A DNA stretch of 64,000 nt from a virus: positions 1 through 64,000 of IMG/VR virus record IMGVR_UViG_3300045996_002640. The stretch is one strand, 5' to 3'. Made by a program: the position numbers and the translations under genes. The notes under the pieces were generated by a model that worked only from the letters and a program-made list of their open reading frames with translations, was not told the DNA's origin and did no database searches. Every line of letters starts with the position of its first letter. The first letter of the stretch is position 1. Positions 1 through 58,535 of the stretch are shown piece by piece.

Positions 1-257
1 GCCCATCCTCCGGCGCCGAGCACCTGACGAAGCTTTGAGACCGCGCCGCGCGGGAGCGTCATCAGGCCACGGTCGACCTTCCAGAGCACGTACTCAGGTG
101 GCTCCTTACTCGCCCAGGCACGCGACATCTGCGCGAGCCGCTTGTGCTTCGGGTTCTTGTGCGTGAACGCCGCCTTGAGGTCGTCGATCAGCTGCGCGGG
201 GAGCTGCTTAGCGTCGAGCCTTAGACGTTCGTCGACCGTAACCTGGATTCGTTTCAT
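1..257 (-). CDS. N-terminal part of a probable superfamily-2 (DEAD/DEAH-like) helicase, running off the window edge
   Basis: Manual translation from ATG at 257 (ATGA overlap with the upstream stop) gives MKRIQVTVDERLRLDAKQLPAQLIDDLKAAFTHKNPKH...LMTLPRGAVSKL. The F-x3-NP...LPRG pattern resembles N-termini of phage SF2 helicases. Helicase motifs would lie outside the window. Confidence 0.45.
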   Translation of the reverse strand, partial: MKRIQVTVDERLRLDAKQLPAQLIDDLKAAFTHKNPKHKRLAQMSRAWASKEPPEYVLWKVDRGLMTLPRGAVSKLRQVLGAGGW

Positions 258-769
258 GGGAGCTCCATCTTCTCGAGCGCCTCGCCGAGCGCGCGTACCT
301 CTGTGAGCCGCAACCGCTGGCGATTCCTCGCGCTCGCAGCAAACCCGACGAGCTCGCGCACGTTGTGGACCATCCGCTCGGGCAGCGCCGGCTCGATGTG
401 CAATTGCGCGAGCGTCAGATCGATCCAGAATTCGATCCGCCACGTGTCCTTGAACTCGAACCCACGACGCAGCGCGAACTTCTTACGCTCAGCACCAGCG
501 CGCAGCCGGTGCCGGAGGACCATGATCGCGTACCGCGCGATGACCTTGTCGACGACGAGCTCGATCACGAACTGCATCCGAACGACCAGATCTCTCTCGA
601 AGTCGTGAAAGCGAATTCGAAAGACCTGGATATCCGCCTCGTCGTACCCCCGCTCGGTGTAGCCCGGCGCTTGCTTGACGCTGAACACCTTAGAGCTCCG
701 GCCGGGGCTTGCGTTCCACGCCTTGTGCGCGCGAAAGCGCTTTGCGATCCGTTCGAACGCCTCGTTCAC
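254..769 (-). CDS. hypothetical protein with conserved C-terminal tag (ALGEALEKMELP)
   Basis: 171-aa ORF, coupled to neighbours, carrying the shared C-terminal motif. Confidence 0.75.
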   Translation of the reverse strand: MNEAFERIAKRFRAHKAWNASPGRSSKVFSVKQAPGYTERGYDEADIQVFRIRFHDFERDLVVRMQFVIELVVDKVIARYAIMVLRHRLRAGAERKKFALRRGFEFKDTWRIEFWIDLTLAQLHIEPALPERMVHNVRELVGFAASARNRQRLRLTEVRALGEALEKMELP

Positions 770-1005
770 GCACCGATAATGCCGCGCCGCGCACGGAGCT
801 CGGCGAGCGCTTCGGACACGAGCATCGCGTCCATGGACGCGTCGTGCCCCCCGACCGCCTCAGCCGAAGCGACCTCGAGCGAGCTACCTCGAGCGCGCAC
901 GCGGAGGTGTGCCTGCCCCCGTCCGGGGGCGCTCAGCACGATCGAGACGAACCCGTCGTGCGACCTGGTCCTCGAAATGACCTGCATCGCTGCACCGCCT
1001 CCCAT
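766..1005 (-). CDS. small hypothetical protein
   Basis: Fills the gap in a coupled operon; GTGA overlap with the next gene; the true start may be 987. Confidence 0.5.
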   Translation of the reverse strand: MGGGAAMQVISRTRSHDGFVSIVLSAPGRGQAHLRVRARGSSLEVASAEAVGGHDASMDAMLVSEALAELRARRGIIGA

Positions 1006-1008
1006 GTA

Positions 1009-1416
1009 TCACGCCTCCATGTGGGCGTCGATTGCACCAAGGATCTCGTCCAGCTTCTCGAGCCCGTCCAGCGCTTGAGCGGCCGCCCTGGCCTGCTCTT
1101 CCGCCTTGCGCGCCGCCGCACGCTCGGACATCTGACGCAACGCGACCTGGCTGGCGTGGTAGCGATCGACCGCGTGAGCATCGACCTCGATGTCTTCGTC
1201 CGGGTAGGGGATCCGCTTCACGTGGATCGCCCAGCCCGACGGACACTTGGCGAGCGCGCGCGACCTGATCCCGTTCTGGGTGTACGCGCTGATCGCGACC
1301 GGTGGCCAGTAGATGAGGGTGTTCCCGCCCTTGCGTGCGATCTGGAGCAAGCCCTCACCGAGCTCGTGCTCCCGCTCGATCTCCGCGAAGATGGCGCCCG
1401 CCTCGTCGTTCGTCAT
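1009..1416 (-). CDS. hypothetical protein (weak C-terminal tag LDEILGAIDAHMEA)
   Basis: ATG at 1416 overlaps the TGA of the upstream gene; 3' part of ORF 1009..1899. Confidence 0.65.
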   Translation of the reverse strand: MTNDEAGAIFAEIEREHELGEGLLQIARKGGNTLIYWPPVAISAYTQNGIRSRALAKCPSGWAIHVKRIPYPDEDIEVDAHAVDRYHASQVALRQMSERAAARKAEEQARAAAQALDGLEKLDEILGAIDAHMEA

Positions 1417-2021
1417 GGCAGCTCCATGCGGTCCAGTTGGGCGCCCAACGCATCGAGGTCGGCCGGCGTTCCGTCTTGCGGGAAGCTCGGGCCGAATCCT
1501 TCCAAAATGCCGTACCGAGACGCCTCGCGAAGTCCACGCACCGCGAGCACGCCCGCACGCTCCAGCGTCGTCATCCCGTCGAGCAGCTCGTAAAGCTTCT
1601 CGAGCCGGGTCATCCCAACCGTGTGCTTGTCGAGCCTGAGCATGCCAATCATCGAGAGGACCCCGACGTCCCACGACTGCTTGACGAGATTGACCGTGAC
1701 GATCTGAGAAACTTGCCGTAGCCGAGCATGCCGCGCCTCGATCACCGGCATGGCGAGCGCGCCCTGCACCTTGAACGAGACTTCGACCGGTTCGTCCGTC
1801 AAGAGCTGGAGCATCTGCCACACCGCGAAGGCCTGAGCTTCCTGCTGGGCGTAGGTGTGAAAGCCGTAGTTCGCGATAACCGCGATGGCCTGGCCGCAAT
1901 GGTGCTGCACCAAACCCTTGTGCAAGCCAAACTCAATTTCGAGAGCGCCCGAGACCTCGGTGAAATCGGTCAGCGCGAGGAGCTCCTCCACGCGCTCTCG
2001 GCTCGGCACCGGTTCGTTCAT
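1413..2021 (-). CDS. hypothetical protein with conserved C-terminal tag (ALGAQLDRMELP)
   Basis: Start at 2021 is preceded by the GGCATCAT-N6 motif; shared C-terminal motif. Confidence 0.75.
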   Translation of the reverse strand: MNEPVPSRERVEELLALTDFTEVSGALEIEFGLHKGLVQHHCGQAIAVIANYGFHTYAQQEAQAFAVWQMLQLLTDEPVEVSFKVQGALAMPVIEARHARLRQVSQIVTVNLVKQSWDVGVLSMIGMLRLDKHTVGMTRLEKLYELLDGMTTLERAGVLAVRGLREASRYGILEGFGPSFPQDGTPADLDALGAQLDRMELP

Positions 2022-3819: not shown

Positions 3820-3953
3820 CGTGAGCTCCTCGCTCGCCGGCGGCCGCCTTGGCCGTCCTGACGTCCCTACTCTTAGTGCCAGCGCGGCACTAAAGCAACA
3901 CCTGTTTTCGAAGAATCGACCGGGGGGCCCCTCGGCCCCCCGATTCTGGGTCC

Positions 3954-4205
3954 TCAGGCCTTTTCGGCGAATAGGCGCTGCAACCGAGCCAGGGCCGGGA
4001 CCTTCTGCAGCGCTTCGGCCAGCGCCGCGCGAGCCGTGTCGCCTCCGCCGAGGTAGGACGCGTCGCCCGCCTTGAGGCGGGTCGCCAGGGTGACCCGGGC
4101 CGCGTAGCCGCAGCGCGGGTTCAGGGAATCGACCGGCGCGATTCGGACGTCGCCGCCGCTTGCGGTGATCGCCTCGATCGCATCGAGCAGCATCTCGTCG
4201 GTCAT
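3954..4205 (-). CDS. cassette-encoded hypothetical protein
   Basis: MTDEMLLDAIE...; ATGA overlap with the upstream gene. Confidence 0.65.
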   Translation of the reverse strand: MTDEMLLDAIEAITASGGDVRIAPVDSLNPRCGYAARVTLATRLKAGDASYLGGGDTARAALAEALQKVPALARLQRLFAEKA

Positions 4206-4555
4206 CGTGCCCCCCGCGGCTTGATCTCGGCGCGCCAGGTCCAGGGCACCATCTGCTCGCGTGGCCCGTCCTGGCCGTCCAGCGCGAGCATCAAGGCGAC
4301 GTCGCCCAGGGCCTCGACCTCGGCTTCGGCCATCGCGTCCGCGTCCTCGACCAGGCCATCGGGCTCCAGGTAGACCGCGAGGCGGTAGCCCCACCGGTTC
4401 ATGCCGGAATTCTCGATCCGGGCGCTCAGGTTCATCTCCTGGGCCGCCGCGTGAGACTCGAGCATCCCGCCGATTGCCTCGGCGAGCTCAGGCCGGTTGC
4501 ACAGAATCCGGTTCTCGTCCTCGAACAGAATCGCTTCCAGTTTCAGTGTCGTCAT
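4202..4555 (-). CDS. cassette-encoded acidic hypothetical protein
   Basis: MTTLKLEAILF...; GAGG RBS. Confidence 0.7.
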   Translation of the reverse strand: MTTLKLEAILFEDENRILCNRPELAEAIGGMLESHAAAQEMNLSARIENSGMNRWGYRLAVYLEPDGLVEDADAMAEAEVEALGDVALMLALDGQDGPREQMVPWTWRAEIKPRGAR

Positions 4556-4604
4556 CTGGTTCTTCCTCGGTTGGGGTGGGGGGCCCGAAGGCCCCCCGGG
4601 CCGC

Positions 4605-4802
4605 TCAGCGCTTGCTGACCAAGACCTCGAATTCGGTCCCGTCCGCCAGGCGAAGGACGAAGCCTTCGGCGCGCTCATCGCCCTCATGAACGATGGTTCG
4701 GGTCCGGCATTGAACCAGCTCGTCCATCTCGGCGAGGTCGTCCGTCGTGATCGACCCGTCGAAGAGCGCCTTGATCGTCCGTGCCAATTTCGCGTTGTCC
4801 AT
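4605..4802 (-). CDS. cassette-encoded small acidic protein
   Basis: MDNAKLART...; AAGGAG RBS after the repeat at 4827. Confidence 0.75.
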   Translation of the reverse strand: MDNAKLARTIKALFDGSITTDDLAEMDELVQCRTRTIVHEGDERAEGFVLRLADGTEFEVLVSKR

Positions 4803-4853
4803 CTCGAGCTCCTTGCTCTGCCGCGCGGCCGCCTTGGCCGTGCTGACAAGAGA

Positions 4854-4884
4854 CACCTTAGTGCCAGGCTGGCACCATTGCAAC
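4854..4884 (-). promoter_or_regulatory. sigma70-type promoter with a palindromic operator in the spacer (representative copy)
   Basis: -35 TTGCAA, 17-bp spacer, -10 TAAGGT; the palindrome TTAGTGCC-N5-GGCAC(T/C)A overlaps the spacer and the -10. Confidence 0.8.
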
Positions 4885-4933
4885 TCCTTCGTTTGAGAAT
4901 CGACCGAGCCCCCCGAAGGGGGCCCGCCCCGGC

Positions 4934-5239
4934 TCAGTAGTCCTCGCCCTGGATCTGAACCGAGCACCCCGGCGAGGCCTTGAGCTCCTCGACCGAGACC
5001 AGGCCGTTCAGGCCGGCGAGCGCGCGGCCGGCGTACTCGGGGTCCCAGAAAAAAGAGATCTCGTTCTCGCCCTCGTCGTCGCTCGCCACGACGCTCAGAC
5101 CGAACGCGTCAATGATCACCATCCCGCCGAGCTCGCCCACCTGGCACTCGCCGATCAGCGGGGCCGAGCCGTCGGGGAAAGACGTCGCACCCGCGAACCC
5201 ATACCAGTCGGTCTTTGAAAACGGCTTCATCTGGATCAT
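4934..5239 (-). CDS. cassette-encoded acidic hypothetical protein
   Basis: MIQMKPFSKTDWYGFAGA...; AAGGAGG RBS after the repeat at 5262. Confidence 0.8.
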   Translation of the reverse strand: MIQMKPFSKTDWYGFAGATSFPDGSAPLIGECQVGELGGMVIIDAFGLSVVASDDEGENEISFFWDPEYAGRALAGLNGLVSVEELKASPGCSVQIQGEDY

Positions 5240-5367
5240 CGTGGCCTCCTTGGCCGCCGCGGGCCGCCTTGGCGCCGCTGACAAGAAACACCTTAGTGCC
5301 AGGCTGGCACCATTGCAACTCCTTCGTTCGAGAATCGACCAGGCCCCCGAAGGGGCCCTCGGCCACC

Positions 5368-5559
5368 TCACCGCTGAGCCTGCCGCGCTGCTTGATACTC
5401 GACGTCGGTCAGCGCGCGAACCGGCGCGTAATTGGCGAACCGCTTCGAGTAACTACGCGCCCGATTCTCCGCCGAGGCGAGAGCACGTGCCCCGCCAAAG
5501 TATACCAACCGCCCGGTCTCGGGGTCGCTGCCTACGATGCGAAAGGGATAGTGCTTCAC
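5368..5559 (-). CDS. cassette-encoded small protein
   Basis: AAGGAG RBS and GTG start after the repeat at 5583. Confidence 0.75.
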   Translation of the reverse strand: MKHYPFRIVGSDPETGRLVYFGGARALASAENRARSYSKRFANYAPVRALTDVEYQAARQAQR

Positions 5560-5690
5560 GTGAGGGCTCCTTGCCGGTCGCCGGCCGCCTTGGCCGTGCT
5601 GACAAGAAACACCTTAGTGCCAGGCCGGCACCATTGCAACTCCTTCGTTTGAGAATCGACCGGGGGCCCCGAGGCCCCCCGCGCCGGCGC

Positions 5691-5930
5691 TCAGCTCCAG
5701 AAAACCACCGCGCATCCGAGCCCGCGCGCGCCCTGGACTCCCCATGCGCGCATCTCGCCCGCAAGCTCCTCGGCCGCTTCCTCATCCTGGCAGAGGAGCT
5801 TGCCGTCCTCGGCGCCAACCACCCGAGCGTCCGTCGCCGGGCTGTAGGTCAGGTTCGCACCGTAAAGCACGATCTTCATCGTGCCGGTCTCGGAATCCGT
5901 CGTGATCTTCTGGGCGTTGATCTTGCTCAT
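5691..5930 (-). CDS. cassette-encoded small protein
   Basis: MSKINAQK...; AAGGAG RBS after the repeat at 5955. Confidence 0.75.
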   Translation of the reverse strand: MSKINAQKITTDSETGTMKIVLYGANLTYSPATDARVVGAEDGKLLCQDEEAAEELAGEMRAWGVQGARGLGCAVVFWS

Positions 5931-6063
5931 CGGGTGGCTCCTTGCCTCGTCGGGGGCCGCCTTGGCCGCCCTGACAAGAGACACCTTAGTGCCAGGTAGG
6001 CACCAACGCAACTTCTTTTTCTGAGAAAGGTGGGGGACCCCCGAAGGGGCCCCCCGGTTGGGG

Positions 6064-6363
6064 TCAGCCGGCGTGCGGATCTTCCTCGACCTCGAAGCCG
6101 AAGATCTCCGCGATGTCGCCGAGCGTCTGGTCGATCACCTTGATGTGGTCTTGCGTGAAGACCGGTTCAAAGCTTGCGTCCTCGCGCTCGATCTCGACCC
6201 GGAATCTCCAGGGCGAGTCCTGGTCGTTCACCTTGGTGAGCTTGGGAACCAAGCCGTGATCCGAGACGCCCCGCACGAAGCAGATCATCCGGAACACAAC
6301 CTCGGCTTCCTCGAGTGCCTCGGTGTAGACCGCGAACTCACCCTTGGCCAACTTGCCTTTCAT
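6064..6363 (-). CDS. cassette-encoded acidic protein
   Basis: 99-aa ORF downstream of the repeat at 6411. Confidence 0.75.
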   Translation of the reverse strand: MKGKLAKGEFAVYTEALEEAEVVFRMICFVRGVSDHGLVPKLTKVNDQDSPWRFRVEIEREDASFEPVFTQDHIKVIDQTLGDIAEIFGFEVEEDPHAG

Positions 6364-6494
6364 TTCTGTTTTTCTGCCTTCCTCCGGGCGCCTTGCCCGG
6401 CGTCGCTCGCGGCCACCTTGGCCGCGCTGACGTCCCTACTCTTAGTGCCAGCGGGGCACTAATGCAACTTCTTCGTTCGCGAGCCGGTCGATTC

Positions 6495-7266: not shown

Positions 7267-7331
7267 CGGGTAGCTCCTACGACCCGAAGCCCGGGGCTCT
7301 CGCCTCCGGGCCGTGCGGGCCGCTGTCGGCC

Positions 7332-7568: not shown

Positions 7569-7696
7569 CTTGAGCTCCTTGCTCGCCGCGGGCCGCCTTG
7601 GCCTCGCTGACAAGAAACACCTTAGTGCCAGGCTGGCACCATTGCAACTCCTTCGTTCGAAAAAAGAAGGGGCCCATTTCGAGGCCCCGATCCGGC

Positions 7697-40433: not shown

Positions 40434-41480
40434 TCACTGAATGACGCCGGAGATCAGACCGCCGACGACCGTGCTGGTCATCTTGGCGATGTCCGCCATG
40501 CTGGTCACGATCATCGTGCCGCCGAGCGGGCCGCGGTCGTTCACGAAGAACTCGCGCGTCTCGAAGCCGGTACCGCTCGGGCCCTTGCGACGGAAGGTGA
40601 ACGTGCTCGCGATGTCCTCGCCCGAGGTCGGAACGCCGGGCGGGGAGTGGGTGGCGACCACGTAGCTGTCCCCGAGGAAGGGAACGATCGAGCCCGCGGC
40701 GTTCCGGTACTTGGCGCCGCAGACGTGCACCACACCGACCGCCGGGATCACGAAGTCGATCATCCGATTGACCGCGCTCGCCTCGTTCAGGCTCTGGATC
40801 GTCGATGCCATCGCGGCGTCGCCGTTCATGAACCGGAAGTGATCGCGCACCTTGTCGTGGCGAATGAAGTAGTTCGCGACCTTCTGGTTCATCCAGAATT
40901 CGACCGGGCTCATGACCGAGCGATCAGCGATCGTCATCAGATCGAAAATCGGGTCGGAGCTCGCCCCGCCGTTCCACTGGAATCCGGCCGCCAGGGTGAC
41001 CACGTTGTTCGCGTTCCACGAACCGGACGTGGTGAGCAGCGTCCAGACGTCGAGCTCGCGGTCGATCTGGAGCGCGCGCTTGCAGCGCTGCATCGCGGCT
41101 TGGCGCGGCTTGAACGCCTTCACCGCGTTGAGCTCGGTCACGGTCGGAACGAACGCGCCGACGAGGCGGTCGACCACCTTGTAGCTCAAGAGCTCGGTCT
41201 TCGCGTCGACCTCGGGCACGCGCTGCTGGTGCGACGCCTTCACGTGCACCGGCTTGAACGCGTCGTCCGAGCTCATGCTCCGGTACTTGTCCTCGTCCAC
41301 ATCGACGAGGATGATCTTGCTGGCTTCGTCCGCGCGGTAGTTCGGGACGTTGTAGCCGGCGAGATAGGTGGACATCTCCTCGGCCACGTGGACGTCGGAC
41401 GGGCTGAGCGCCAGCGTGACCTTCTGGCCTGCCTTGCCGATCGGGCTGTCCTCGGCGAGGACGATCTCCATGCGTTCCAT
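40434..41480 (-). CDS. major capsid protein
   Basis: 348 aa after the protease and decoration genes; QWNGGASSDPIFDL and GGLISGVI patterns of phage capsid proteins. Confidence 0.85.
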   Translation of the reverse strand: MERMEIVLAEDSPIGKAGQKVTLALSPSDVHVAEEMSTYLAGYNVPNYRADEASKIILVDVDEDKYRSMSSDDAFKPVHVKASHQQRVPEVDAKTELLSYKVVDRLVGAFVPTVTELNAVKAFKPRQAAMQRCKRALQIDRELDVWTLLTTSGSWNANNVVTLAAGFQWNGGASSDPIFDLMTIADRSVMSPVEFWMNQKVANYFIRHDKVRDHFRFMNGDAAMASTIQSLNEASAVNRMIDFVIPAVGVVHVCGAKYRNAAGSIVPFLGDSYVVATHSPPGVPTSGEDIASTFTFRRKGPSGTGFETREFFVNDRGPLGGTMIVTSMADIAKMTSTVVGGLISGVIQ

Positions 41481-42018: not shown

Positions 42019-43809
42019 TCAGTCGGTGAACTGGACGCCGCTCGCACGGAGGCCGTGCGCCTCGGCGGTGACCGCATCCCAGTCGAGCTTCGGGTTCTGG
42101 GCCTTGACCCAGTTGCAAACGCGGTCGAAGGAGTTGAGCCCGGAGATCCCGGCGAGGCTCACGCTCTTCACGCCCTCGCCTGCATTGGCGCGACCGACCT
42201 GCTCGAGCCGCACGCCGCCGGCGCCGTCACTCACGAGCCGCGTCTCACCACCGAGCTTGCTCTTCGAAATGCTCTGCAGCAGGTGCGGAGCCTGGCCAGG
42301 GGTGATCGCGCCCGGTGCGGGCAACGGGTACTTCTCGAGGAACTTCGGCTTACCGAGCGTCTTGCGCTCGAGCTTGATCCCAGCGACGACCGACTTGCGG
42401 AACGTCTCGGGCAAAGCGTCGAAGCCCGGCTGCGAAGCGGCCGCCTTCTCGGCGTCCTCTTCGATCTCCTTATCCTCGGCAGCCGCCTTGGCTTCGCGCA
42501 GCTCCTTGAGCTCGGGCATGAGCGCCTCGAGCTCCTTCACCTGCGTGAACATGTTCGCGATCTTGTCGGTCGCGCCCGCACTGTCCTCGATCCCGAGGGC
42601 CTTGCAGATGGCGCCGAGCTTCTCGACCGCCGACATGGCCTTCGAGGATTCCTCGAGGATCACGGCGTCGATCACGTTCGGCGAGAGGTGTAGGTTCTTC
42701 GCGAGCGCGATACGGAACGACAGAGTCGCATCCGCCGCTTCGAGAACGGCTGCTTCGGTGTCGATGACGCGGAAACGGGTGGCGAGAGCCTTGATGATCG
42801 TCATGTTCTTCTTCTCCAGTACGGCCGGCGCTGGTTCGGCCGGGGAGGGTGCGGGAGCCGGAGCCGGCTCGGGGTTCTTGAGTGCTTCCTCTTCGAGGAG
42901 TCGCTGCAGCAGGTTCGCGCCCGCCGCGAAGACCTCCTCGTTCAAGGAGAGAGCGGGCAGATTGAAGATCTTGCGCATGGCGCCGACGAGCTCGTCGAGC
43001 TCCACGCCGAGGGGCGCCATCCCGGTCCCGACCCATTCCTGGACCAGACCGATCTGCTTGAGGACGTCGCCGATGCCCGCGGTGTTCGCGAGGCCGAACA
43101 GGTTCCGGAGCTTCTCGAGCGCGTCCTTCGGTGAGCTCGCGGCGTCGTAGTAGTAGTACCCGAGACGCGCTTCCGCGGGCTCGCGACGCTCAGCAGCGAG
43201 CGGCGTCATTCCCTCGATAAACGGCTTGTTCGTGAGCGCGATCGACGTCAGGTTCGCGCCGATGTCCGCGCCCGTGACCGGGTCGATCGAGTGGAACAGA
43301 ACTGTGACCGAACTCCACTGGTACCGGCCCTCTTTGACGTACGAGCGCGCCGGCTCGAGCCAAAGCGTGTACGCCCAGAGCTGCACCTTGCCGTCCGCGC
43401 CGACGCGAGTGTTGAGGTCGTAGACCCAGCCTTGCGCGGGGGCTCCGTTCACCGGGATCGAACCGCTCGTCGGGTTCATCTCGGAGGCGTGGTGGAAGTC
43501 CCAGGGAACGACCTTGCTCGCGCCGACGCCCAGTGCATCCGCCTTGTAGGCGGGGTGCGCTCGGAAGTTCTTGATGATCTGGTCGAAGACGCCCTGATCG
43601 AACTTGAAGGCACCCGCTGAGTACCCGGCGTAGGTTCCCTCTTGCGCGACCTGGACCCACACCGGCTTGTTCTCGTCCGCCGCCGGGAGCGCCGTGGCGT
43701 CGAGCAAGATGGACGCGACCGCCGACATAGAGCCGGGCTTCGCCTTGAGCACCACCGGTTTCGGTTGGGCGCCCAACGCAATCGCGTGAGGGTTTCGGAA
43801 TCGGGGCAT
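42019..43809 (-). CDS. Mu gpI-like prohead protease with C-terminal scaffold
   Basis: PWDFHHAS..APAQGWV..LWA..W..GRYQWSS..SIALTNKPFIEGM. Confidence 0.92.
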   Translation of the reverse strand: MPRFRNPHAIALGAQPKPVVLKAKPGSMSAVASILLDATALPAADENKPVWVQVAQEGTYAGYSAGAFKFDQGVFDQIIKNFRAHPAYKADALGVGASKVVPWDFHHASEMNPTSGSIPVNGAPAQGWVYDLNTRVGADGKVQLWAYTLWLEPARSYVKEGRYQWSSVTVLFHSIDPVTGADIGANLTSIALTNKPFIEGMTPLAAERREPAEARLGYYYYDAASSPKDALEKLRNLFGLANTAGIGDVLKQIGLVQEWVGTGMAPLGVELDELVGAMRKIFNLPALSLNEEVFAAGANLLQRLLEEEALKNPEPAPAPAPSPAEPAPAVLEKKNMTIIKALATRFRVIDTEAAVLEAADATLSFRIALAKNLHLSPNVIDAVILEESSKAMSAVEKLGAICKALGIEDSAGATDKIANMFTQVKELEALMPELKELREAKAAAEDKEIEEDAEKAAASQPGFDALPETFRKSVVAGIKLERKTLGKPKFLEKYPLPAPGAITPGQAPHLLQSISKSKLGGETRLVSDGAGGVRLEQVGRANAGEGVKSVSLAGISGLNSFDRVCNWVKAQNPKLDWDAVTAEAHGLRASGVQFTD

Positions 43810-44304: not shown

Positions 44305-44910
44305 TCACGCGCGAAGACTGCGTGTCAAGCGCGCTTGATCGACCGAGCGCGCGATCTCGATCAGCCACTCGGCGAACGCGGGAGGTGATTTGCGTCGCTG
44401 CTCGGCGCTGCAGACCTTGATTCCGTCGGGTACTGGACCGCGCGGAGCGTTGCGCGAGCCGCTCGCCCAGTGCGTCGGCACGCCTCCAGTGCGCACGCCT
44501 TGCTCCACGAAATCGCGTGGAGCTCCTACGATGTAGAGCCAGGTCTTTTTGCGAGCGACGTGCCCCCACGCGCATTGCTCGACCTGGATCGTGAAGCCGC
44601 CGTACGTGTCCATGAGCTCGCCGGGGCGAGGGAGCTCGACCAGCTTCCAGAGCGTCGAGTGAGCAGGGTGCTCGAGCACGCCTCCGAACACCCGCACCTG
44701 AGCCACAGCGATCAGCGCGCAATCGTTCTCAGCGCCTTGGTACAGCTGCTTGAGCTTCGAGTAGGGGCCGCACGGAGGATGCGCGACGACCGGCCAGGGC
44801 CCGGCGTACCCGCGCGCGTCGCGCTTCGCATCCCAGCAAAACGACGACCCGAGCAGCTCCGGGTAGGGGCCGTTCGGGTCGATGTAGAGCGCTGCAACTC
44901 GAGCGGTCAT
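44305..44910 (-). CDS. minimal C5-cytosine DNA methyltransferase-like protein
   Basis: VAHPPC (motif IV), VLEHP (motif VI) and RKKTWLY (motif VIII-like); no FxGxG motif I; ATGA-coupled to the portal. Confidence 0.7.
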   Translation of the reverse strand: MTARVAALYIDPNGPYPELLGSSFCWDAKRDARGYAGPWPVVAHPPCGPYSKLKQLYQGAENDCALIAVAQVRVFGGVLEHPAHSTLWKLVELPRPGELMDTYGGFTIQVEQCAWGHVARKKTWLYIVGAPRDFVEQGVRTGGVPTHWASGSRNAPRGPVPDGIKVCSAEQRRKSPPAFAEWLIEIARSVDQARLTRSLRA

Positions 44911-53725: not shown

Positions 53726-54050
53726 CGATCGACTGCACCTGAAAACCCCACTGCTCGAAGCGCGTCTGCAGCGCGCGCTCCAAGAAACGGTTCTTCTTCT
53801 GGGCCTCGATCATGCGCGCGTTCATTCGCCCGAGCTCGACCCAGAGCCCGACCAAACCCATCGGCCACGCGAACACCGCGAAGACCATCATCAGGCTTTC
53901 GGCAAGCGCCTCGTTCCAGCCCCTCGGGTAACCCATCTCGCCCGGCCGATTCTCGATCGCAGCGCTCGCTGCGTACATGGCGGTAACGACGCCGGCGCCG
54001 AAGAGCAGGTAGCCCCCGGCGATTGCCGTCAGGATCTCGCGGTCTGTCAT
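53601..54050 (-). CDS. membrane protein
   Basis: Two TM segments; GGCATCAT-N6-ATG start. Confidence 0.6.
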   Translation of the reverse strand: MTDREILTAIAGGYLLFGAGVVTAMYAASAAIENRPGEMGYPRGWNEALAESLMMVFAVFAWPMGLVGLWVELGRMNARMIEAQKKNRFLERALQTRFEQWGFQVQSIDVARHSPVDGHDSKSEPAHSRRDGGGAEGSGEEQGPGPGPA

Positions 54051-54054
54051 GCGG

Positions 54055-54444
54055 CTATGATGCCGCGCCGAAGTACCGATCGATCAGGTCATCTTCAGGA
54101 AGCCGGCGCGCAGCGCGAGACCGAGCCTTGCGGTTCTGCTTCCAGCGCTTTCGCTTCCTGGCTTTCTTGGACCGCCTCGCGACCGCCGCGAGCGATCGCT
54201 GCTCCATCGGTCGGAACCACGAGAACACGAGCAGCGCGCCCTTGATGCGATTGCACTCGGCGCACGCTGGAACGAGGTTGTAGGCGTCGCCGCCTCCGCC
54301 CCCTCGGCTCCTCGGAATCACGTGGTCACGAGTCGTCGCTTCAGCCCTCAGGCAATACGAGCAGCGCGCGCCGTTCAGGCGCACGTCTCGGTTGGCAACG
54401 TCGACCGAGCGCCACCGAAACTCGCTCAGCCCGAGCGGTCTCAC
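54055..54444 (-). CDS. HNH endonuclease
   Basis: CSYC..TRDHVIPRSRGG..NLVPACAECNRIKG; GTGA-coupled start. Confidence 0.9.
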   Translation of the reverse strand: MRPLGLSEFRWRSVDVANRDVRLNGARCSYCLRAEATTRDHVIPRSRGGGGGDAYNLVPACAECNRIKGALLVFSWFRPMEQRSLAAVARRSKKARKRKRWKQNRKARSRAARRLPEDDLIDRYFGAAS

Positions 54445-54926
54445 GGCAGGTCCATGCGGTCCAGTTGGGCGCCCAACTCGTCGAGCAAGCCGTCCGGGAT
54501 CGGCTCGGGCGGCGCCTTCCGCGGGATCGACAACTCGGCGATGATGATCCGCTCCAGCACGACCGGCTCGCCGGTGATGACCGCGGCTGCCGTCTGGCGC
54601 GTGAACTTGATCGAGTCGCCGAGGTCGATCCCGAGCCCGGGGATTCCGCACCGGCTAAGCTCGTCAATGATCCGGCTCCGCATCTGAGGCGTCAGGTTCG
54701 GAAGCAAGACCTCGGGGTAGCACGGCTCGTTCGACCGCCAGGTGAGCGTCCAGCCCGGGTAGCCCGTGCGCTGCATCGCCTTGGTGACCGCCTGAGTGAT
54801 CTCGTACTGGGTGTCCCCATCGGAGCGCTGCGGCCCGAGCCCGAGCGCGCGCCGAATGTCGTCGAGCGGGTTCCCTGGTTTCGTATTCCAGCCGATCACC
54901 TCTTCCGCGAACCTCGGCAACGTCAT
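54441..54926 (-). CDS. hypothetical protein with C-terminal tag (ELGAQLDRMDLP)
   Basis: Coupled ORF. Confidence 0.75.
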   Translation of the reverse strand: MTLPRFAEEVIGWNTKPGNPLDDIRRALGLGPQRSDGDTQYEITQAVTKAMQRTGYPGWTLTWRSNEPCYPEVLLPNLTPQMRSRIIDELSRCGIPGLGIDLGDSIKFTRQTAAAVITGEPVVLERIIIAELSIPRKAPPEPIPDGLLDELGAQLDRMDLP

Positions 54927-55486
54927 CGCTTCGCGAGCTCCTCGAGGAACAACCGAGCGACCGCGCCGAGCAGCGAAGGCTTGGCCTTGACCTGCTGAGC
55001 AGTGAGCCCGCTCACTTCGGCAAGCTTCGCAGCGAACACGTGGTCACCCTGCACCGCTTGCTGCAGCAGCGCGCGCGACGCGTTCTCGAGAACCTCGGCC
55101 GCTTGCTTCGGGAACGCGAGCGGGTGATCTTTCACCTGGACGAGCGCGTTCGCCATGTCCGCCCACGAGAGCACCAACTTCGGTTCGACCGGGGGCTCGT
55201 CTTTCTCGCTCGCAAGCGTCGCCATCAACGCCGCCTTGGTCTGCTCGGCGTTCGACGCCGCCTTGCTCGCCGCCTGGTCAAGAAGCGCCGCGAGCTGCGG
55301 TGCCGACTGGTCCGCCTTCATCTGACCGGCGAGGTCGGTCATCACCTGGGCCGCTTGGCGCTGAGCCTTGGCGATCCCGAGCGCCTCACCAGCGCGGTAG
55401 AGCGCGAGCTCGCGCGGGCTCATGACCAGGGTCTCGGCTCCCTCAGGGATCTGGAATTGGGCGGCGTTCGGCTTCGGGGTCGTCAT
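54923..55486 (-). CDS. helical hypothetical protein
   Basis: Start MTTPKPN at 55486. Confidence 0.7.
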   Translation of the reverse strand: MTTPKPNAAQFQIPEGAETLVMSPRELALYRAGEALGIAKAQRQAAQVMTDLAGQMKADQSAPQLAALLDQAASKAASNAEQTKAALMATLASEKDEPPVEPKLVLSWADMANALVQVKDHPLAFPKQAAEVLENASRALLQQAVQGDHVFAAKLAEVSGLTAQQVKAKPSLLGAVARLFLEELAKR

Positions 55487-55494
55487 GCCCCCCA

Positions 55495-55989
55495 TCATGC
55501 CAGACGGAAGACCCGCCCTTCGAGCATCCCGAGCCCCCGAGCGACCAGGCCCTTGGCGTACTCGAGCTCGAACCGCTCGATCGGGGTTGCCCCGCCGTGG
55601 GCCCTGGCTCGCCCTACAATCGCTTTCTGCTTTTGGGATAGCCAGCGCTCCGCCGGAGGCCTCGCCGGCGCGGGGCGCCTCGGCCTGGTCGGTCTGGGAG
55701 CGGGTTGCGCCGGTACCGCCCGAAGGCCGTGCGCGTTCCACCGATGGGCGCCCAACGCGCTCTTCGTCGCGAAGCTCGAGCCGCACGCGCAACGGTAATC
55801 GGTGGGGAGCGGGGCCGGCTGGTTCCCCTTCCAATCGCTAGCAGCGACCTCGGGCTCGAGATGAACCGTCGCCCCGCCAGGCGCACGCGTCAGCGTCAGC
55901 ACCTCAGTCCATCCGCGTCGGGCGTCGCCCTTGGTCTGCGCCTCAGCAAAGAGCTCCAGGATGTCGAGCCTGAGCGCAGGGTAGTTCAT
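55495..55989 (-). CDS. protein with a C2H2-like zinc finger
   Basis: YRCACGSSFATKSALGAHRWNAH. Confidence 0.65.
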   Translation of the reverse strand: MNYPALRLDILELFAEAQTKGDARRGWTEVLTLTRAPGGATVHLEPEVAASDWKGNQPAPLPTDYRCACGSSFATKSALGAHRWNAHGLRAVPAQPAPRPTRPRRPAPARPPAERWLSQKQKAIVGRARAHGGATPIERFELEYAKGLVARGLGMLEGRVFRLA

Positions 55990-56009
55990 CGGCGAGCGGT
56001 CACCATAAC

Positions 56010-56423
56010 TCAGGGCTGGTCGAGCTTGGCGAGCTCTTCGTCGAGCCGCTCGTAATCCTCGAGGGTGTCCGCTGGTGGGGCTGGGCGAACCGACGCAATC
56101 CCGAACGCCTCGGCAAGCACGCGCATGTGCAGCGGGAGACCAACGACCCCACCCGACACGCGCCAGATCATGTCGCGCACCGCTTCATCGACCGTTTCGA
56201 TCAGCAGGTCGTCCTCGTCCTGCCTGAGCGCATACACGTCCTCGGGCGTGAACGTCGCGAGGTGCTGGTCATCGACCAAGATTCTGACCTTGGTGATCGT
56301 GCCACTCGCGCGCGCCGCACCGTAGAACCCGCCACGCGACTCGTCCCAACGAAGCACCGCAAGCGTCGTCTTGTCGCTCTGGTCCCGAGCCAGCAGGGTG
56401 ACTCGCTCCTTACCCTGAGCCAT
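56010..56423 (-). CDS. hypothetical protein with C-terminal tag (RLDEELAKLDQP)
   Basis: TGATG-coupled start at 56423. Confidence 0.75.
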   Translation of the reverse strand: MAQGKERVTLLARDQSDKTTLAVLRWDESRGGFYGAARASGTITKVRILVDDQHLATFTPEDVYALRQDEDDLLIETVDEAVRDMIWRVSGGVVGLPLHMRVLAEAFGIASVRPAPPADTLEDYERLDEELAKLDQP

Positions 56424-57001
56424 CAGGGAAGCTCCATCCGGTCGAGCTCGGCGCCAAGCTCGGCGCACCGGCGCTCGCCTTCGACACGCTGCACCTCGCG
56501 CATGCTCGCTCGATCCGCTTCGCTCACCGGAGGCTCGTCCACCAACTTGCTCGCCTCTGAAAACTTCCGTAAGTACTTGGCGAATGGCGAGTCGCCGATC
56601 TCTCGCGGCGGTGTTGGCGTCCCTCGGTACTGAGTGGTGAAGCCCTGACCAGTGCTCGGCGGGTTGAAGCTCGGACGATGCATCGAGTGCATCGAGACGT
56701 ACCGTTCGTAGGCCTCGCAGATATCGGCATCCGACACGCCCGCTTCCTTGAGGCGCTGGACCGCTTCGTTCGCACTCAATCGCTCGAACGCCATCGAGAT
56801 GTCCCGGCGGGAGACAATTGCATCGCGAGTCGCTGTCTCACGCACCCGGCGCTCGAGCTCGGCAAGCTTCGCCATTGCAGCCTGCGTGTCGTCCGAGGAG
56901 CCGAACGCCGCGAGCGCGCGCTTCATGTGCGAGCCCACGGCGTCCAGCTTGCTCGAGTCGATCCCGATACTGAACCGCGGCTTGCCGTCGTCTTTCGCCA
57001 T
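56423..57001 (-). CDS. hypothetical protein with C-terminal tag (ELGAELDRMELP)
   Basis: 192-aa ORF. Confidence 0.75.
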   Translation of the reverse strand: MAKDDGKPRFSIGIDSSKLDAVGSHMKRALAAFGSSDDTQAAMAKLAELERRVRETATRDAIVSRRDISMAFERLSANEAVQRLKEAGVSDADICEAYERYVSMHSMHRPSFNPPSTGQGFTTQYRGTPTPPREIGDSPFAKYLRKFSEASKLVDEPPVSEADRASMREVQRVEGERRCAELGAELDRMELP

Positions 57002-57016
57002 CGCTTCGAGAATGCC

Positions 57017-57475
57017 CTACTCGGTTGGGTTCATCTTCTCGAGCTCGGCGCCGAGCCGGTCGATCTGGTCCGGGTCGGGAACCAGCTTCTTGGCGCGCGC
57101 CGCGAGGATTGCGTTCGACACCAGCATGTTCGCCATCCGGAGCCGCTTGCCGGCGAGCTGCTCGGGCTGAGGCTTGAGCGTGATCACCGCGATGAGCGGG
57201 CCGAGCCCGAAGCCGATGTGGACCATGGTCGGGTCGTTCTTGTCGATATCGACGACGATGTTCTCGCGCACCGACGGGAGCGTCTCGTGCACCGCAAGGA
57301 ACGTCGGCACCCCGGTCTCAATGATCGTACCCTCGATCGCCGCCATCCGCGGCACGTACTCGTCCGCGCCAAACTCGAAGTCGGCAAGCGCGATCGTATT
57401 GCCGAGCGCGCCAGCAGCCTTGTACTCCGCCGGCGTGGGGACCGGACCGCTCTTCACCAGAACCAGGTACTTCAT
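57017..57475 (-). CDS. hypothetical protein with C-terminal tag (RLGAELEKMNPTE)
   Basis: Start MKYLVLV at 57475. Confidence 0.75.
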   Translation of the reverse strand: MKYLVLVKSGPVPTPAEYKAAGALGNTIALADFEFGADEYVPRMAAIEGTIIETGVPTFLAVHETLPSVRENIVVDIDKNDPTMVHIGFGLGPLIAVITLKPQPEQLAGKRLRMANMLVSNAILAARAKKLVPDPDQIDRLGAELEKMNPTE

Positions 57476-57822
57476 TTCGTCGTCTCCTCGAGGGCCGCGA
57501 ACGCGGCGTTCAATCCAGTCATCGCTTCCAGCACTGGGTCGTCCGACTCGCGATAGACCGAGATCTTGATCAGGTGGGACACCAAGACCGGCATCTTGCC
57601 GCGCACGTCCGAGACCAGCGCATGGCAAAGGACCGTGTCCGCGTCATCGGTCACGATGATCTGGAGCTCAGCGAATGCGTCCGGTGCCTGCAGCGCGCGC
57701 GCCGCGACGACCTTGAGCCCGAGCAGCTGAGCGCTCAGCCCAGCCTGCGTGCAGACCGCCTGGCACGCAGCTCGCGCGGCGATGACGTCGGTTGGCGAAA
57801 CGGACACGTCGTTCAATCCCAT
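57472..57822 (-). CDS. hypothetical protein (weak tag GLNAAFAALEE)
   Basis: Coupled ORF. Confidence 0.7.
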   Translation of the reverse strand: MGLNDVSVSPTDVIAARAACQAVCTQAGLSAQLLGLKVVAARALQAPDAFAELQIIVTDDADTVLCHALVSDVRGKMPVLVSHLIKISVYRESDDPVLEAMTGLNAAFAALEETTK

Positions 57823-58535
57823 GGGCGGTCCATCTTCTCGAGTTGGGCGCCCAACTCGTCCAACAAATGAGGGTCGAGGCGCACTCGCTTACTCGGTACC
57901 GGCTTGCTCACCATGCCCTGCAGCGCGCGCGCGACCAGCGCGAACGGGACCTCAACGTTCCCCTCGCCATCGTCGGCCAGGCTGTCTTCGAGGGGCACCG
58001 TACGCGTCGTGCTGCCGAAGCCGCCAGGCGCGCCGCTCTGAATCATCAGGTGCGTCGGGGCAATCGCCGAGATGATGCGCCCTCGCCAGACCGGAAAGTC
58101 CCGGTCGGGACCGGCGCAATAGAAGTTGAACGGCACCGTGATCGGGCGAGGCTTCTCCGTCATGACGCCAGGCGCGGCGAGCTCGACCGTAGTCTTTTCG
58201 ATCGCGACGCCATTGATGGCGCCGGCCGCACGCACGGCCCCGAGCTTTGCAAGCACCCAGTGCAGGTAGACCCGGTGCGTTCCGAAATTCTCGACGTGCG
58301 CACCCGGGTCAAGAGGCGTCGAAAAGAGCACGTCCTTGGCGAGCACCGCGGGCTCGTTCTGTCTCGTCAGGCTGAGCTTACCGAACGTCGCCGAGACTGG
58401 TATTCCCTGTCGCTCTCCGGCGCCGATGTAGTTGCCGGTGCTATCCAGCACCGTGAGCGAGATCGTGCGATTCGCGGAGTCGGTCAAGAAGACGCCGAGC
58501 CCGTCCAGCTCGACCAGGTTCTTAGTCCTGGTCAA
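57813..58535 (-). CDS. hypothetical protein with C-terminal tag (ELGAQLEKMDRP)
   Basis: 240-aa coupled ORF. Confidence 0.75.
   Translation of the reverse strand: MTRTKNLVELDGLGVFLTDSANRTISLTVLDSTGNYIGAGERQGIPVSATFGKLSLTRQNEPAVLAKDVLFSTPLDPGAHVENFGTHRVYLHWVLAKLGAVRAAGAINGVAIEKTTVELAAPGVMTEKPRPITVPFNFYCAGPDRDFPVWRGRIISAIAPTHLMIQSGAPGGFGSTTRTVPLEDSLADDGEGNVEVPFALVARALQGMVSKPVPSKRVRLDPHLLDELGAQLEKMDRPWD

What the first reader, a model, noticed from the sequence alone, without database searches (positions are those of the whole stretch)
254..58535. A shared C-terminal helical tag on at least 13 small proteins: candidate cargo-addressing system
Seen: 13 proteins, mostly with no other visible similarity, end in the same amphipathic motif. 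They are 254 (ALGEALEKMELP), 1413 (ALGAQLDRMELP), 48766 (DLDRELAALDQ), 49449 (ELDAELEKMELPN), 49946 (ALGRELERLELP), 50458 (ALGRELDRLTLPS), 50997 (QLGAQLDGMMPS), 51524 (KLQAALDEMELPR), 54441 (ELGAQLDRMDLP), 56010 (RLDEELAKLDQP), 56423 (ELGAELDRMELP), 57017 (RLGAELEKMNP) and 57813 (ELGAQLEKMDRP). Weaker cases are 1009, 6683 and 57472. The tag often follows a Pro-containing linker, and 11 of the 13 genes lie between terminase and portal. Established: short terminal peptides address cargo into protein shells, as with the T4 internal-protein capsid-targeting sequence and encapsulin cargo-loading peptides. Inference: the tag docks diverse effectors onto one partner, most attractively the procapsid (capsid, scaffold or portal) for co-injection. 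Alternatives are a degron or a host-complex docking helix.
Basis: partly seen in the sequence, partly recalled or inferred. Interest (0 to 1): 0.92.

Follow-up and report, generated by a model that had tools for sequence, protein, structure and literature searches.

The report
Shared C-terminal tag on phage proteins
In a 94-kb uncultured phage genome, 17 otherwise unrelated small accessory proteins end in the same 12-15-residue helical peptide on a flexible linker. This looks like a portable address label, possibly for loading cargo into the capsid, but the partner it binds is still unknown.

Summary
The consensus is phi-D-x-L-G-A-[EQ]-L-[DE]-[RK]-M-E-L-P. It ends 12 proteins in the window and 5 more beyond it, so 17 of about 135 proteins in the 93.8-kb genome carry it. 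Gene 48766 is marginal; 1009, 6683 and 57472 are not supported. All 18 regex matches lie 3-7 residues from a stop and none is internal; shuffled proteomes give 0.036 matches.

The tag bearers are not paralogues by BLAST or hhalign. One is a DUF7448 domain plus linker plus tag, and the 119 closest listed DUF7448 homologues all lack the tag. AlphaFold2 shows two different folds, each followed by a disordered linker and a terminal helix. In a sister phage (JGI contigs up to 95.7 kb), three orthologues keep the tag at 69% identity while their domains share 37%.

The DNA also carries a second signal. A palindrome centred on GGCGCC shows significant synonymous-codon bias, and GGAG in ATG-GAG can serve as the ribosome-binding site of the next gene.

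The tag is absent from IMG/VR, GTDB genomes, PDB, Pfam and PHROGs. This scan had already noted the tag in an overlapping window of the same genome, not on other DNA.

The parts
254..769 (-). Tagged gene (171 aa); tag plus stop at 254-301, ...EVRALGEALEKMELP*
   Evidence: PSSM 31.6 bits. The stop overlaps the downstream ATG.
1413..2021 (-). Tagged gene (202 aa); tag plus stop at 1413-1460, ...DLDALGAQLDRMELP*
   Evidence: Best PSSM score, 42.6 bits. Contains the palindrome TTGGGCGCCCAA at 1437-1448. No Pfam, PHROG or NCBIfam hit.
48766..49452 (-). Marginal case (228 aa), ...ELTDLDRELAALDQHDRNR*
   Evidence: PSSM 19.3 bits against a shuffle maximum of 18.6. Lacks M-x-L-P. Its tail matches portal residues 76-91 at 10 of 16 positions.
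49449..49949 (-). Tagged gene: DUF7448 domain, 25-aa Pro/Lys linker, then tag; tag plus stop at 49449-49499, ...AIDELDAELEKMELPN*
   Evidence: Pfam PF24240 at residues 15-126, E=2.6e-22, and phrog_2650. None of 119 homologues has the tag. AlphaFold2 gives a beta domain at 1-125, coil at 126-143 and a helix at 144-156.
49946..50461 (-). Tagged gene (171 aa); tag plus stop at 49946-49993, ...DYEALGRELERLELP*
   Evidence: PSSM 36.0 bits. Shares only its last 24 aa with 50458.
50458..51000 (-). Tagged gene (162-180 aa); tag plus stop at 50458-50508, ...DYVALGRELDRLTLPS*
   Evidence: PSSM 32.6 bits.
50997..51506 (-). Tagged gene (169 aa); tag plus stop at 50997-51044, ...YLEQLGAQLDGMMPS*
   Evidence: PSSM 29.9 bits. 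Palindrome at 51021-51032.
51524..51889 (-). Tagged gene (115-121 aa); tag plus stop at 51524-51574, ...PFPKLQAALDEMELPR*
   Evidence: PSSM 28.9 bits.
54441..54926 (-). Tagged gene (161 aa); tag plus stop at 54441-54488, ...LLDELGAQLDRMDLP*
   Evidence: PSSM 40.1 bits. Sister-phage orthologues P0143 and P0002 keep ...ELGAQLEAMKLP* at 47% overall identity. AlphaFold2 gives an alpha/beta core, a disordered stretch at 130-144 and a helix at 145-157.
56010..56423 (-). Tagged gene (137 aa); tag plus stop at 56010-56057, ...DYERLDEELAKLDQP*
   Evidence: PSSM 31.0 bits.
56423..57001 (-). Tagged gene (192 aa); tag plus stop at 56423-56470, ...RCAELGAELDRMELP*
   Evidence: PSSM 37.8 bits.
57017..57475 (-). 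Tagged gene (152 aa); tag plus stop at 57017-57067, ...QIDRLGAELEKMNPTE*
   Evidence: PSSM 33.3 bits. CTCGGCGCCGAG is a perfect palindrome.
57813..58535 (-). Tagged gene (240 aa); tag plus stop at 57813-57866, ...LLDELGAQLEKMDRPWD*
   Evidence: PSSM 35.7 bits. Palindrome at 57843-57854, which extends to 18 bp with its flanks as read from the codon listing.
60447..62069 (-). Large terminase; upstream boundary of the 12.8-kb island that holds 11 of the tagged genes
   Evidence: tblastn hits to annotated terminase large subunits of T7-like phages.
44907..47609 (-). Portal fused to a MuF domain; downstream boundary of the island and a candidate receptor
   Evidence: Pfam Portal_Mu at 4.2e-59 and Phage_Mu_F at 2.3e-20. 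In relatives L001-L004, terL and the portal are only 640-770 nt apart.
42019..43809 (-). Mu-like prohead protease with a C-terminal helical (scaffold-like) half; candidate receptor
   Evidence: Pfam Mu-like_Pro at 1e-14 and phrog_328. Sequence inspected.
40434..41480 (-). Major capsid protein (HK97-fold, Phage_cap_E family); candidate receptor
   Evidence: Pfam PF03864 at 5.1e-07 and phrog_1005.
54055..54444 (-). HNH endonuclease gene that starts on the stop codon of tagged gene 54441
   Evidence: Pfam HNH at 4.9e-10.

Best explanation
SHOWN. The motif is a portable, translated C-terminal module. The architecture is a folded domain of any kind, then a Pro-rich disordered linker of about 15-25 residues, then an amphipathic helix (hydrophobic residues at -3, L0 and L4, then M7), then an extended M-x-L-P end. 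The module has been appended to at least 17 unrelated, mostly acidic, soluble accessory proteins. It is kept under purifying selection in a sister phage.

INFERRED. Such a design serves to bring many different proteins to one shared receptor. I take the most likely receptor to be the inside of the assembling procapsid (scaffold/protease core or capsid protein). The tagged proteins would then be loaded as cargo and delivered with the DNA into the next cell. This is the functional equivalent of the T4 capsid-targeting sequence or an encapsulin cargo-loading peptide.

Probabilities. That the tag is a protein-level addressing or docking peptide with a common receptor: about 0.75. That the receptor is the procapsid: about 0.35 overall, which is the confidence given here.

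SEPARATE SIGNAL. The coding DNA of the tag also carries a palindromic site and the ribosome-binding site of the next gene. These shape codons 0-3 and 7-8 but cannot explain the rest of the motif.
For: - Position and statistics: 18 of 18 regex hits lie at C-termini, against 0.036 in shuffles, and the PSSM scores are bimodal.
- Not paralogues: blastp similarity covers the tail only, and hhalign gives at most 4.7% probability for any body pair.
- Appended module: 49449 is DUF7448 plus linker plus tag, while 119 homologues (median 129 aa, up to 58% identity) end where the domain ends.
- Structure: an all-beta fold and an alpha/beta fold are each followed by coil and a terminal helix.
- Protein-level selection: the information profile follows codon position 2 > 1 > 3. 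Conserved columns use varied codons: L9 is CTC/CTG/CTT, P10 is CCA/CCC/CCG, column 6 is AAG or CGS (K or R), and the hydrophobic -3 position is CTC/ATC/TAC/TTC/GTG.
- Evolution: three orthologue pairs with the sister phage share 37% identity in the domain and 69% in the last 14 residues. The sister tags read M-K-L, so the GGAG ribosome-binding site is not what is conserved.
- Capsid reading: 11 tagged genes sit in a 12.8-kb lineage-specific island inside the terL-portal junction of the head operon. That junction is 640-770 nt in relatives, and no consensus promoter or excess of terminators was found in it. The proteins are small (111-240 aa) and soluble, like known packaged anti-defence proteins (T4 internal proteins, PMC3012670; P1 DarA/Hdf, PMC12810830).
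Against: - No receptor was identified. No head protein carries a tag-like segment, and the C-terminus of the scaffold/protease is unlike the tag.
- Seven tags lie outside the head operon: five between a RusA-like resolvase gene and terL, and two at the far end after the promoter cassettes. Their timing need not match head assembly.
- The tagged proteins are acidic, with a median pI of 5.0. By my recollection the T4 internal proteins are basic.
- The portal and capsid relatives in IMG/VR have no tag and no other recurrent C-tail, so the capsid family as such does not require it.
- Significant synonymous-codon constraint in the tag core shows that not all of the conservation is at protein level.
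Confidence: 0.35

Rival explanations
1. The tag docks onto a hub that is not part of the capsid. The hub would be a host machine (for example RNA polymerase, a chaperone or a secretion or translocation ATPase) or a phage-built scaffold or compartment. The tag would concentrate many accessory proteins there.
For: The domain-linker-helix architecture and the conservation fit any groove-binding short linear motif. The tagged proteins are acidic small ORFans, typical of host-takeover or anti-defence genes. The tags occur in three genome regions that may be expressed at different times.
Against: Seventeen different proteins competing for one stoichiometric host site would be an odd design. No peptide-binding domain (TPR, PDZ or similar) was seen in the roughly 40 proteins scanned. 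The motif matches no known clamp-binding or SSB-tail consensus; this is by my own inspection, not a tool test.
Confidence: 0.2
2. The tag is a degron. A host or phage AAA+ protease or adaptor would recognise the exposed C-terminal helix and clear all tagged proteins on a common schedule.
For: The tag is strictly C-terminal and sits on a disordered linker, which is the geometry unfoldases use. A catalytic receptor tolerates many substrates.
Against: The last residues vary (P, PN, PS, PR, PK, PTE, PWD, GG) and are polar, unlike the non-polar ssrA-type ends known to me. The tag is acidic. No protease other than the prohead protease was found. The 'protease' label of phrog_11227 for 63408-63866 rests only on a stomatin/prohibitin-like coiled coil.
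Confidence: 0.15
3. The conserved element works mainly as nucleic acid. It would be a junction module (a palindromic protein-binding or recombination site plus the ribosome-binding site and start of the next gene) that spreads by gene conversion or cassette shuffling. The peptide would be a by-product.
For: - All six LGAQ tags use the rare codons TTG and CAA (8% and 15% genome usage), which gives the perfect palindrome TTGGGCGCCCAA.
- Ala at column 2 is GCC in 10 of 11 cases (genome 26%), and Gly is GGC in 13 of 13.
- The 10-mer TGGGCGCCCA occurs 17 times against 0.14-0.22 expected, including 11 sites outside the tags.
- By my reading of the sequences, about 13 of 17 tag stops overlap the next start, with GGAG 5-6 nt upstream.
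- An HNH endonuclease gene abuts one tag.
- The same genome uses another repeated junction module, the promoter cassettes.
Against: - Columns 4-10 and -3 are conserved as amino acids while their codons vary.
- The information profile follows codon positions.
- All 18 six-frame matches to the peptide pattern are translated in frame from a real gene through a unique linker; there are no untranslated or out-of-frame matches.
- 64 other xTGA-type stop/start junctions in the genome work without the tag.
- The sister phage keeps M-x-L-P but not GGAG.
- There is no common RNA hairpin: the folding energy of the last 60 nt in tagged versus untagged genes gives p=0.10.
Confidence: 0.1
4. The tags bind each other. 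They would form two-heptad coiled coils and so assemble the accessory proteins into mixed oligomers or a condensate.
For: The hydrophobic residues are spaced like a heptad repeat (-3, 0, 4, 7), flanked by paired acidic and basic residues.
Against: The helix is only about 13 residues long and has a conserved Gly-Ala, which is short for a stable coiled coil. AlphaFold2 leaves it isolated with modest confidence.
Confidence: 0.08
5. The tag is a nascent-chain arrest or termination-pausing peptide. It would end in Pro-UGA and stall the ribosome at the stop codon to promote re-initiation on the overlapping downstream start.
For: The conserved stretch is about 12-15 residues, roughly the length of the ribosomal exit tunnel. 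It ends in Pro followed by TGA in 8 tags. By my reading, most junctions are start/stop overlaps.
Against: The distance from Pro to the stop varies from 0 to 2 residues, and one tag has no Pro. TGA is the stop of 83% of all genes. Four tag junctions are not overlapped, by my reading. Other coupled junctions need no such peptide.
Confidence: 0.04

Closest known systems
T4 capsid-targeting sequence (CTS) of the internal proteins IPI, IPII and IPIII
   Same: A short conserved terminal peptide is shared by otherwise highly diverse small anti-defence proteins. It is sufficient to load foreign proteins into the prohead scaffolding core (PMC3012670, read).
   Different: By my recollection the T4 peptide is N-terminal and is removed by the prohead protease. 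The peptide here is C-terminal, has no sequence resemblance, sits in a Mu-like rather than T4-like head module, and has no shown encapsidation or cleavage.
Encapsulin cargo-loading peptides
   Same: A C-terminal short peptide on a flexible linker is attached to diverse cargo enzymes and binds the inner face of an HK97-fold shell. This is established knowledge; see for example the abstracts of PMC10960027 and PMC10402063, listed. The phage capsid protein here is HK97-fold.
   Different: Encapsulin peptides as I recall them are Gly/Ser-containing extended motifs, not an acidic amphipathic helix. An encapsulin usually has only one or a few cargo types. No binding has been shown here.
Bacterial-microcompartment encapsulation peptides
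   Same: The architecture is the same: a terminal amphipathic helix of about 15-20 residues, separated from unrelated enzyme domains by a poorly conserved linker. This is my recollection of established knowledge and was not checked in a paper here.
   Different: No microcompartment shell genes were seen in the proteins scanned. The container here would be a viral capsid.
Capsid-binding C-terminal helices of phage scaffolding proteins (P22; 80alpha and SaPI1 CpmB)
   Same: A C-terminal helical segment docks onto the capsid protein and can carry fused cargo into procapsids. This is established knowledge from memory.
   Different: The scaffold/protease of this phage ends in an unrelated sequence. 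The tag bearers are globular accessory proteins, not scaffolds.
Start-associated sequences of Cluster K mycobacteriophages and other repeated gene-junction DNA modules
   Same: A repeated short sequence at gene junctions includes the ribosome-binding site of the next gene and overlaps the end of the upstream gene. This is from memory. The tag DNA does hold GGAG and a palindrome.
   Different: Here the repeat is always read in one frame as the end of a real protein. It varies at synonymous positions in most columns and is conserved as a peptide in a sister phage.

Membership tests
T4-type capsid-targeting sequence | N-terminal position on the cargo protein | tested here: not met
   All 17 tags lie 0-3 residues from the C-terminus.
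T4-type capsid-targeting sequence | Directs the protein into the prohead core and is cleaved by the prohead protease | not testable with these tools
   Needs virion proteomics or an encapsidation assay.
Encapsulin cargo-loading peptide | C-terminal peptide separated from the cargo domain by a flexible linker | tested here: met
   AlphaFold2 gives domain, coil and terminal helix in two proteins. Pro is enriched 2-fold in the linkers.
Encapsulin cargo-loading peptide | Binds the luminal face of an HK97-fold shell protein | not testable with these tools
An alignment of the capsid protein (A6) and of the tags (A4) had been prepared.
Encapsulin cargo-loading peptide | Sequence match to a known peptide or family model | tested here: not met
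   No Pfam, PHROG or NCBIfam model covers the tag. A profile search of PDB sequences gave only chance hits, E about 1.
ssrA-like or ClpX C-terminal degron | Non-polar extreme C-terminus (such as LAA-COOH) recognised at the carboxylate | tested here: not met
   The termini are P, PN, PS, PR, PK, PTE, PWD or GG. The definition of the degron class is from memory.
Paralogous protein family with a conserved C-terminal domain | Detectable similarity outside the last 25 or so residues | tested here: not met
   blastp all-vs-all. hhalign on 136 body pairs gives at most 4.7% probability. The two models show different fold classes.
Non-coding gene-junction repeat (ribosome-binding site or operator module) | Conservation is at nucleotide level, independent of reading frame and codon position | tested here: inconclusive
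   Met for codons 0-3: the GGCGCC palindrome and the TTG, GCC and CAA codon biases. Not met for codons 4-10 and -3 or for frame use.
DUF7448 (PF24240), for gene 49449 only | Match to the Pfam model above its gathering score | tested here: met
   79.6 bits against a cut-off of 27, residues 15-126.

The most novel reading that the evidence does not exclude
A tailed phage runs a general cargo-addressing system. One C-terminal peptide would load at least 17 different accessory (probably anti-defence) proteins into its HK97-fold capsid for co-injection. That would be a viral counterpart of encapsulin cargo loading, with far more cargo types than the T4 internal-protein system. A second layer is possible: the tag DNA doubles as a palindromic site through which new genes are captured in frame, rather like integron cassettes.
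Probability: 0.3. Interest if true: 0.9.

Novelty: new variant of a known kind. Interest (0 to 1): 0.74.

Why it matters
Terminal addressing peptides are known for T4 internal proteins, encapsulins and microcompartments. A single peptide shared by 17 unrelated proteins of one phage has not, to my knowledge, been described, and no database model or solved structure matches it.

If the tag is an address label, it marks a whole set of otherwise uninterpretable ORFans as one functional class. It gives a direct handle to find their common partner by peptide pull-down or co-folding. It could also serve as a natural, compact tag for loading foreign proteins into a phage capsid.

If the receptor is the capsid, the system links phage heads and encapsulins functionally and shows how phages pre-arm virions with many counter-defence proteins.

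The overlay of a peptide motif, a DNA palindrome and a ribosome-binding site in 45 nt is also a clean case of multi-layer coding.

Tried and rejected
SEARCHES FOR RELATIVES
- Megablast of the head region against GenBank phages found nothing.
- IMG/VR relatives found with the portal (17 loci) carry no tag and no other recurrent C-tail.
- Scans of IMG/VR with the tag alignment, with a degenerate DNA pattern, and with P0003 and P0022 found nothing usable.
- The same DNA pattern in GTDB genomes gave 4 single, chance-level hits.
- Two metagenome scans for the 54441 orthologue found nothing.
- A word-indexed profile search returned only the phage's own proteins.
- The exhaustive HMM search of 1.84 billion proteins added only two sister-phage orthologues and two repeat proteins. 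The repeat proteins carry the motif internally and I take them as chance.

BINDING, EXPRESSION AND FUNCTION
- For sequencing runs, none was listed and no RNA holder was listed.
- The ESM Atlas lead for 57813 (ApeA-like, score 0.83) is below a useful level.
- A Foldseek search of PDB with the DUF7448 model gave nothing at E<=0.001.

IDEAS REJECTED
- The tag copies the scaffold C-terminus or another head-protein segment: no internal PSSM hit above chance.
- A conserved RNA hairpin: not found.
- The tag is required for translational coupling: 64 other xTGA-type stop/start junctions lack it.
- The rare Q-to-H variant in P0003 as evidence for the palindrome: it is a single-contig variant, and the common form has Q.
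- The 'protease' label of 63408-63866 as a tag receptor: only a stomatin/prohibitin-like coiled coil supports it.

Full report
WHAT THE WINDOW IS

The window is the first 64 kb of a single 93,801-bp contig held as a virus record. It is 65% G+C, and nearly all genes lie on the minus strand.

The head module is Mu-like:
- a portal fused to a MuF domain (44907-47609);
- a Mu-like prohead protease with a long helical C-terminal half (42019-43809);
- a cement/decoration-like protein (41574-41966);
- a Phage_cap_E-type major capsid protein (40434-41480).

TerL (60447-62069) is distantly T7-like. No cultured phage is close.

THE OBSERVATION

A regex for the core hits 18 times in the 135 proteins I called for the whole genome. 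Every hit lies 3-7 residues from a stop codon and none is internal. Shuffled proteins give 0.036 C-terminal hits on average.

A 15-column PSSM separates 17 tags (28.9-42.6 bits) from everything else. 48766 reaches only 19.3 bits, against 18.6 for the best shuffled proteome. The three 'weaker cases' (1009, 6683, 57472) score 6.8 bits or less.

Five strong tags lie outside the window, at genome positions 66318, 66784, 67377, 68019 and 68351. The scan had already listed these from an overlapping window.

So the real count is 17 solid tags, 12 of them in the window, plus one marginal case.

THE BEARERS ARE UNRELATED AND THE TAG IS AN ADD-ON

All-vs-all blastp finds similarity essentially only in the last 11-25 residues; two pairs extend to 55-66 residues at about 33% identity. 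With the tags cut off, hhalign gives at most 4.7% probability for any of the 136 pairs. Sixteen of the 17 have no Pfam, PHROG or NCBIfam match.

The exception is informative. 49449 is a DUF7448 domain (residues 15-126) followed by a 25-residue Pro/Lys-rich stretch and then the tag. The 119 best of 1,295 DUF7448 homologues (median 129 aa, up to 58% identity) stop where the domain stops, and none has the tag.

AlphaFold2 with a deep alignment gives a confident all-beta domain (1-125), coil (126-143) and a helix (144-156). For 54441, with a shallow alignment, it gives an alpha/beta core, a disordered stretch (130-144) and again a terminal helix (145-157).

Proline is enriched 2-fold in the 20 residues before the tags. 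The tagged proteins are soluble and mostly acidic, with a median pI of 5.0.

PROTEIN-LEVEL OR DNA-LEVEL? BOTH

Evidence for selection on the peptide:
- The information profile across the 18 regex-matched copies follows codon position 2 > 1 > 3.
- Conserved residues are written with varied codons: L9 is CTC, CTG or CTT; P10 is CCA, CCC or CCG; column 6 is AAG or CGS (K or R); the hydrophobic residue at -3 is Leu, Ile, Tyr, Phe or Val.
- All 18 six-frame matches to the peptide pattern are read in frame from a real gene through a unique linker, with no orphan or out-of-frame match.
- 64 other xTGA-type stop/start junctions in this genome do without the tag.

The sister phage adds evolutionary support. 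It is seen on 42-50 JGI contigs of up to 95,725 bp. Three orthologues there keep the tag (...ELGAQLEAMKLP...ELGAQLERMKLT...ELGAQLDAMELPP). The last 14 residues are 69% identical, while the domains are 37% identical. Because two of these read M-K-L, the GGAG of ATG-GAG is not what is being conserved.

Evidence for an additional nucleotide-level constraint:
- All six LGAQ tags use TTG GGC GCC CAA, although TTG and CAA are rare codons (8% and 15%).
- Ala at column 2 is GCC in 10 of 11 cases (genome 26%), and Gly is GGC in 13 of 13.
- The result is a perfect palindrome, TTGGGCGCCCAA. In LGAE tags it is CTCGGCGCCGAG, so the outer bases co-vary.
- The 10-mer TGGGCGCCCA occurs 17 times in the genome against 0.14-0.22 expected. 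Eleven of those sites are outside the tags, and 14 of the 17 lie in the frame xTG GGC GCC CAx.

I found no common RNA hairpin.

By my reading of the sequences, about 13 of 17 tag stop codons overlap the next gene's ATG, GTG or TTG, with GGAG 5-6 nt upstream.

The first four codons and the M-E pair are therefore dual-coded. The rest of the motif is explained only by selection on the peptide.

DISTRIBUTION

The tag is confined to this phage and its sister.
- It is absent from 17 IMG/VR loci related through the portal.
- A degenerate DNA pattern finds nothing in all of IMG/VR.
- GTDB species genomes give 4 singletons, which is chance level.
- An exhaustive HMM search of 1.84 billion proteins adds only the sister-phage orthologues.
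- PDB sequences give nothing.

In the relatives L001-L004, terL and the portal are 640-770 nt apart. Here they are 12.8 kb apart, and none of the intervening genes has a homologue in those loci. The main tag cluster is therefore a lineage-specific island inserted into the head operon.

MECHANISM

What is shown is a portable domain-linker-helix design under purifying selection. A design like this brings many proteins to one receptor, and receptors that tolerate 17 clients are multivalent or catalytic.

I rank the options as follows:
- loading into the procapsid, about 0.35;
- another docking hub, about 0.2;
- a degron, about 0.15;
- a nucleic-acid module with no peptide function, about 0.1;
- tag-tag association, about 0.08;
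- a termination-pausing peptide, about 0.04.

Points in favour of the capsid:
- The island sits inside the late head operon, and no consensus promoter or excess of terminators was found in it.
- The proteins are small, as T4 internal proteins are.
- Precedents exist: the T4 capsid-targeting sequence (PMC3012670), P1 DarA/Hdf bound to the inner capsid surface (PMC12810830) and encapsulin loading peptides.

Points against the capsid:
- No head protein carries a similar segment.
- Seven tags lie outside the head operon.
- The cargo is acidic.
- Related capsids do without the tag.

COMPARISON AND NOVELTY

Functionally the closest known things are the T4 capsid-targeting sequence, encapsulin cargo-loading peptides and microcompartment encapsulation peptides. 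By sequence, position or context the tag is a member of none of them (see the membership table).

I rate it a new variant of a known kind, a terminal addressing peptide. It is unusual for the number of unrelated clients (17) and for the overlay of three codes in about 45 nt.

Interest is 0.74. Its function is still inferred, and the phage is uncultured with an unknown host.

Noticed in passing
window 1438, 2386, 6664, 16615, 22019, 43766, 51022, 54466, 55745, 57844, 58923; genome 64512, 66343, 68379, 70375, 75842, 79892: The 10-bp palindrome TGGGCGCCCA occurs 17 times against 0.14-0.22 expected. Fourteen copies lie in the frame xTG GGC GCC CAx, and ten of the 17 fall between 51 and 70 kb. Only six are in tags, so it is an independent DNA motif of unknown function, perhaps a binding, cleavage or modification site.
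   Followed up: partly
window 47610-60446: The terL-portal junction is 640-770 nt in four IMG/VR relatives. Here it holds a 12.8-kb island of about 27 small genes, none with a homologue in those loci.
   Followed up: yes
window 54055-54444 (-): A free-standing HNH endonuclease gene has its GTG start overlapping the stop codon of tagged gene 54441, about 25 nt downstream of the palindrome. It could drive gene conversion between tag copies.
   Followed up: no
window 3823-13543; genome about 88651: Ten to eleven copies of a 74-78-nt module sit upstream of small-gene cassettes. On the coding strand it reads TTGCAA, a GTGCC-N-GGCAC operator, TAAG, then CCAAGGCGGCC. One further operator copy lies near 88.65 kb.
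   Followed up: partly
window 59617-59655 (-): A perfect inverted repeat, CTTAGTGCCAA...TTGGCACTAAG, ends directly on the ATG of gene 59141-59617. Its half-sites resemble the cassette operator.
   Followed up: no
window 48766-48830 versus 47337-47384: The C-terminal tail of 48766 (EELTDLDRELAALDQH) matches portal residues 76-91 (KDLTDLSRETCALDPH) at 10 of 16 positions, with no DNA-level repeat. The meaning is unclear.
   Followed up: partly
window 49449-49949 (-): The best structural neighbours of the DUF7448 model with a reasonable TM-score are chains D and E of PDB entry 8owu, a polymorphic toxin PT7(Bc) with its cognate immunity protein PIM7(Bc) (probability 0.97-0.98, TM about 0.5, E about 0.04). 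Which protein those chains are was not checked. This is only a weak lead to the domain's function.
   Followed up: no
window 63408-63866 (-): This gene matches phrog_11227, labelled 'protease', at 1.6e-50. The only other similarity is to the coiled-coil part of prohibitin/stomatin (E about 1e-3), so the label probably comes from 'membrane protease subunit' annotations.
   Followed up: partly
protein P0018 (metagenomic, 269 aa): An unrelated repeat protein carries GELDAELEKLxLP three times internally, within a repeat unit of about 90 residues. It scores 44 bits against the tag profile. This is probably coincidence, but it is the only tag-like sequence found outside this phage lineage.
   Followed up: no
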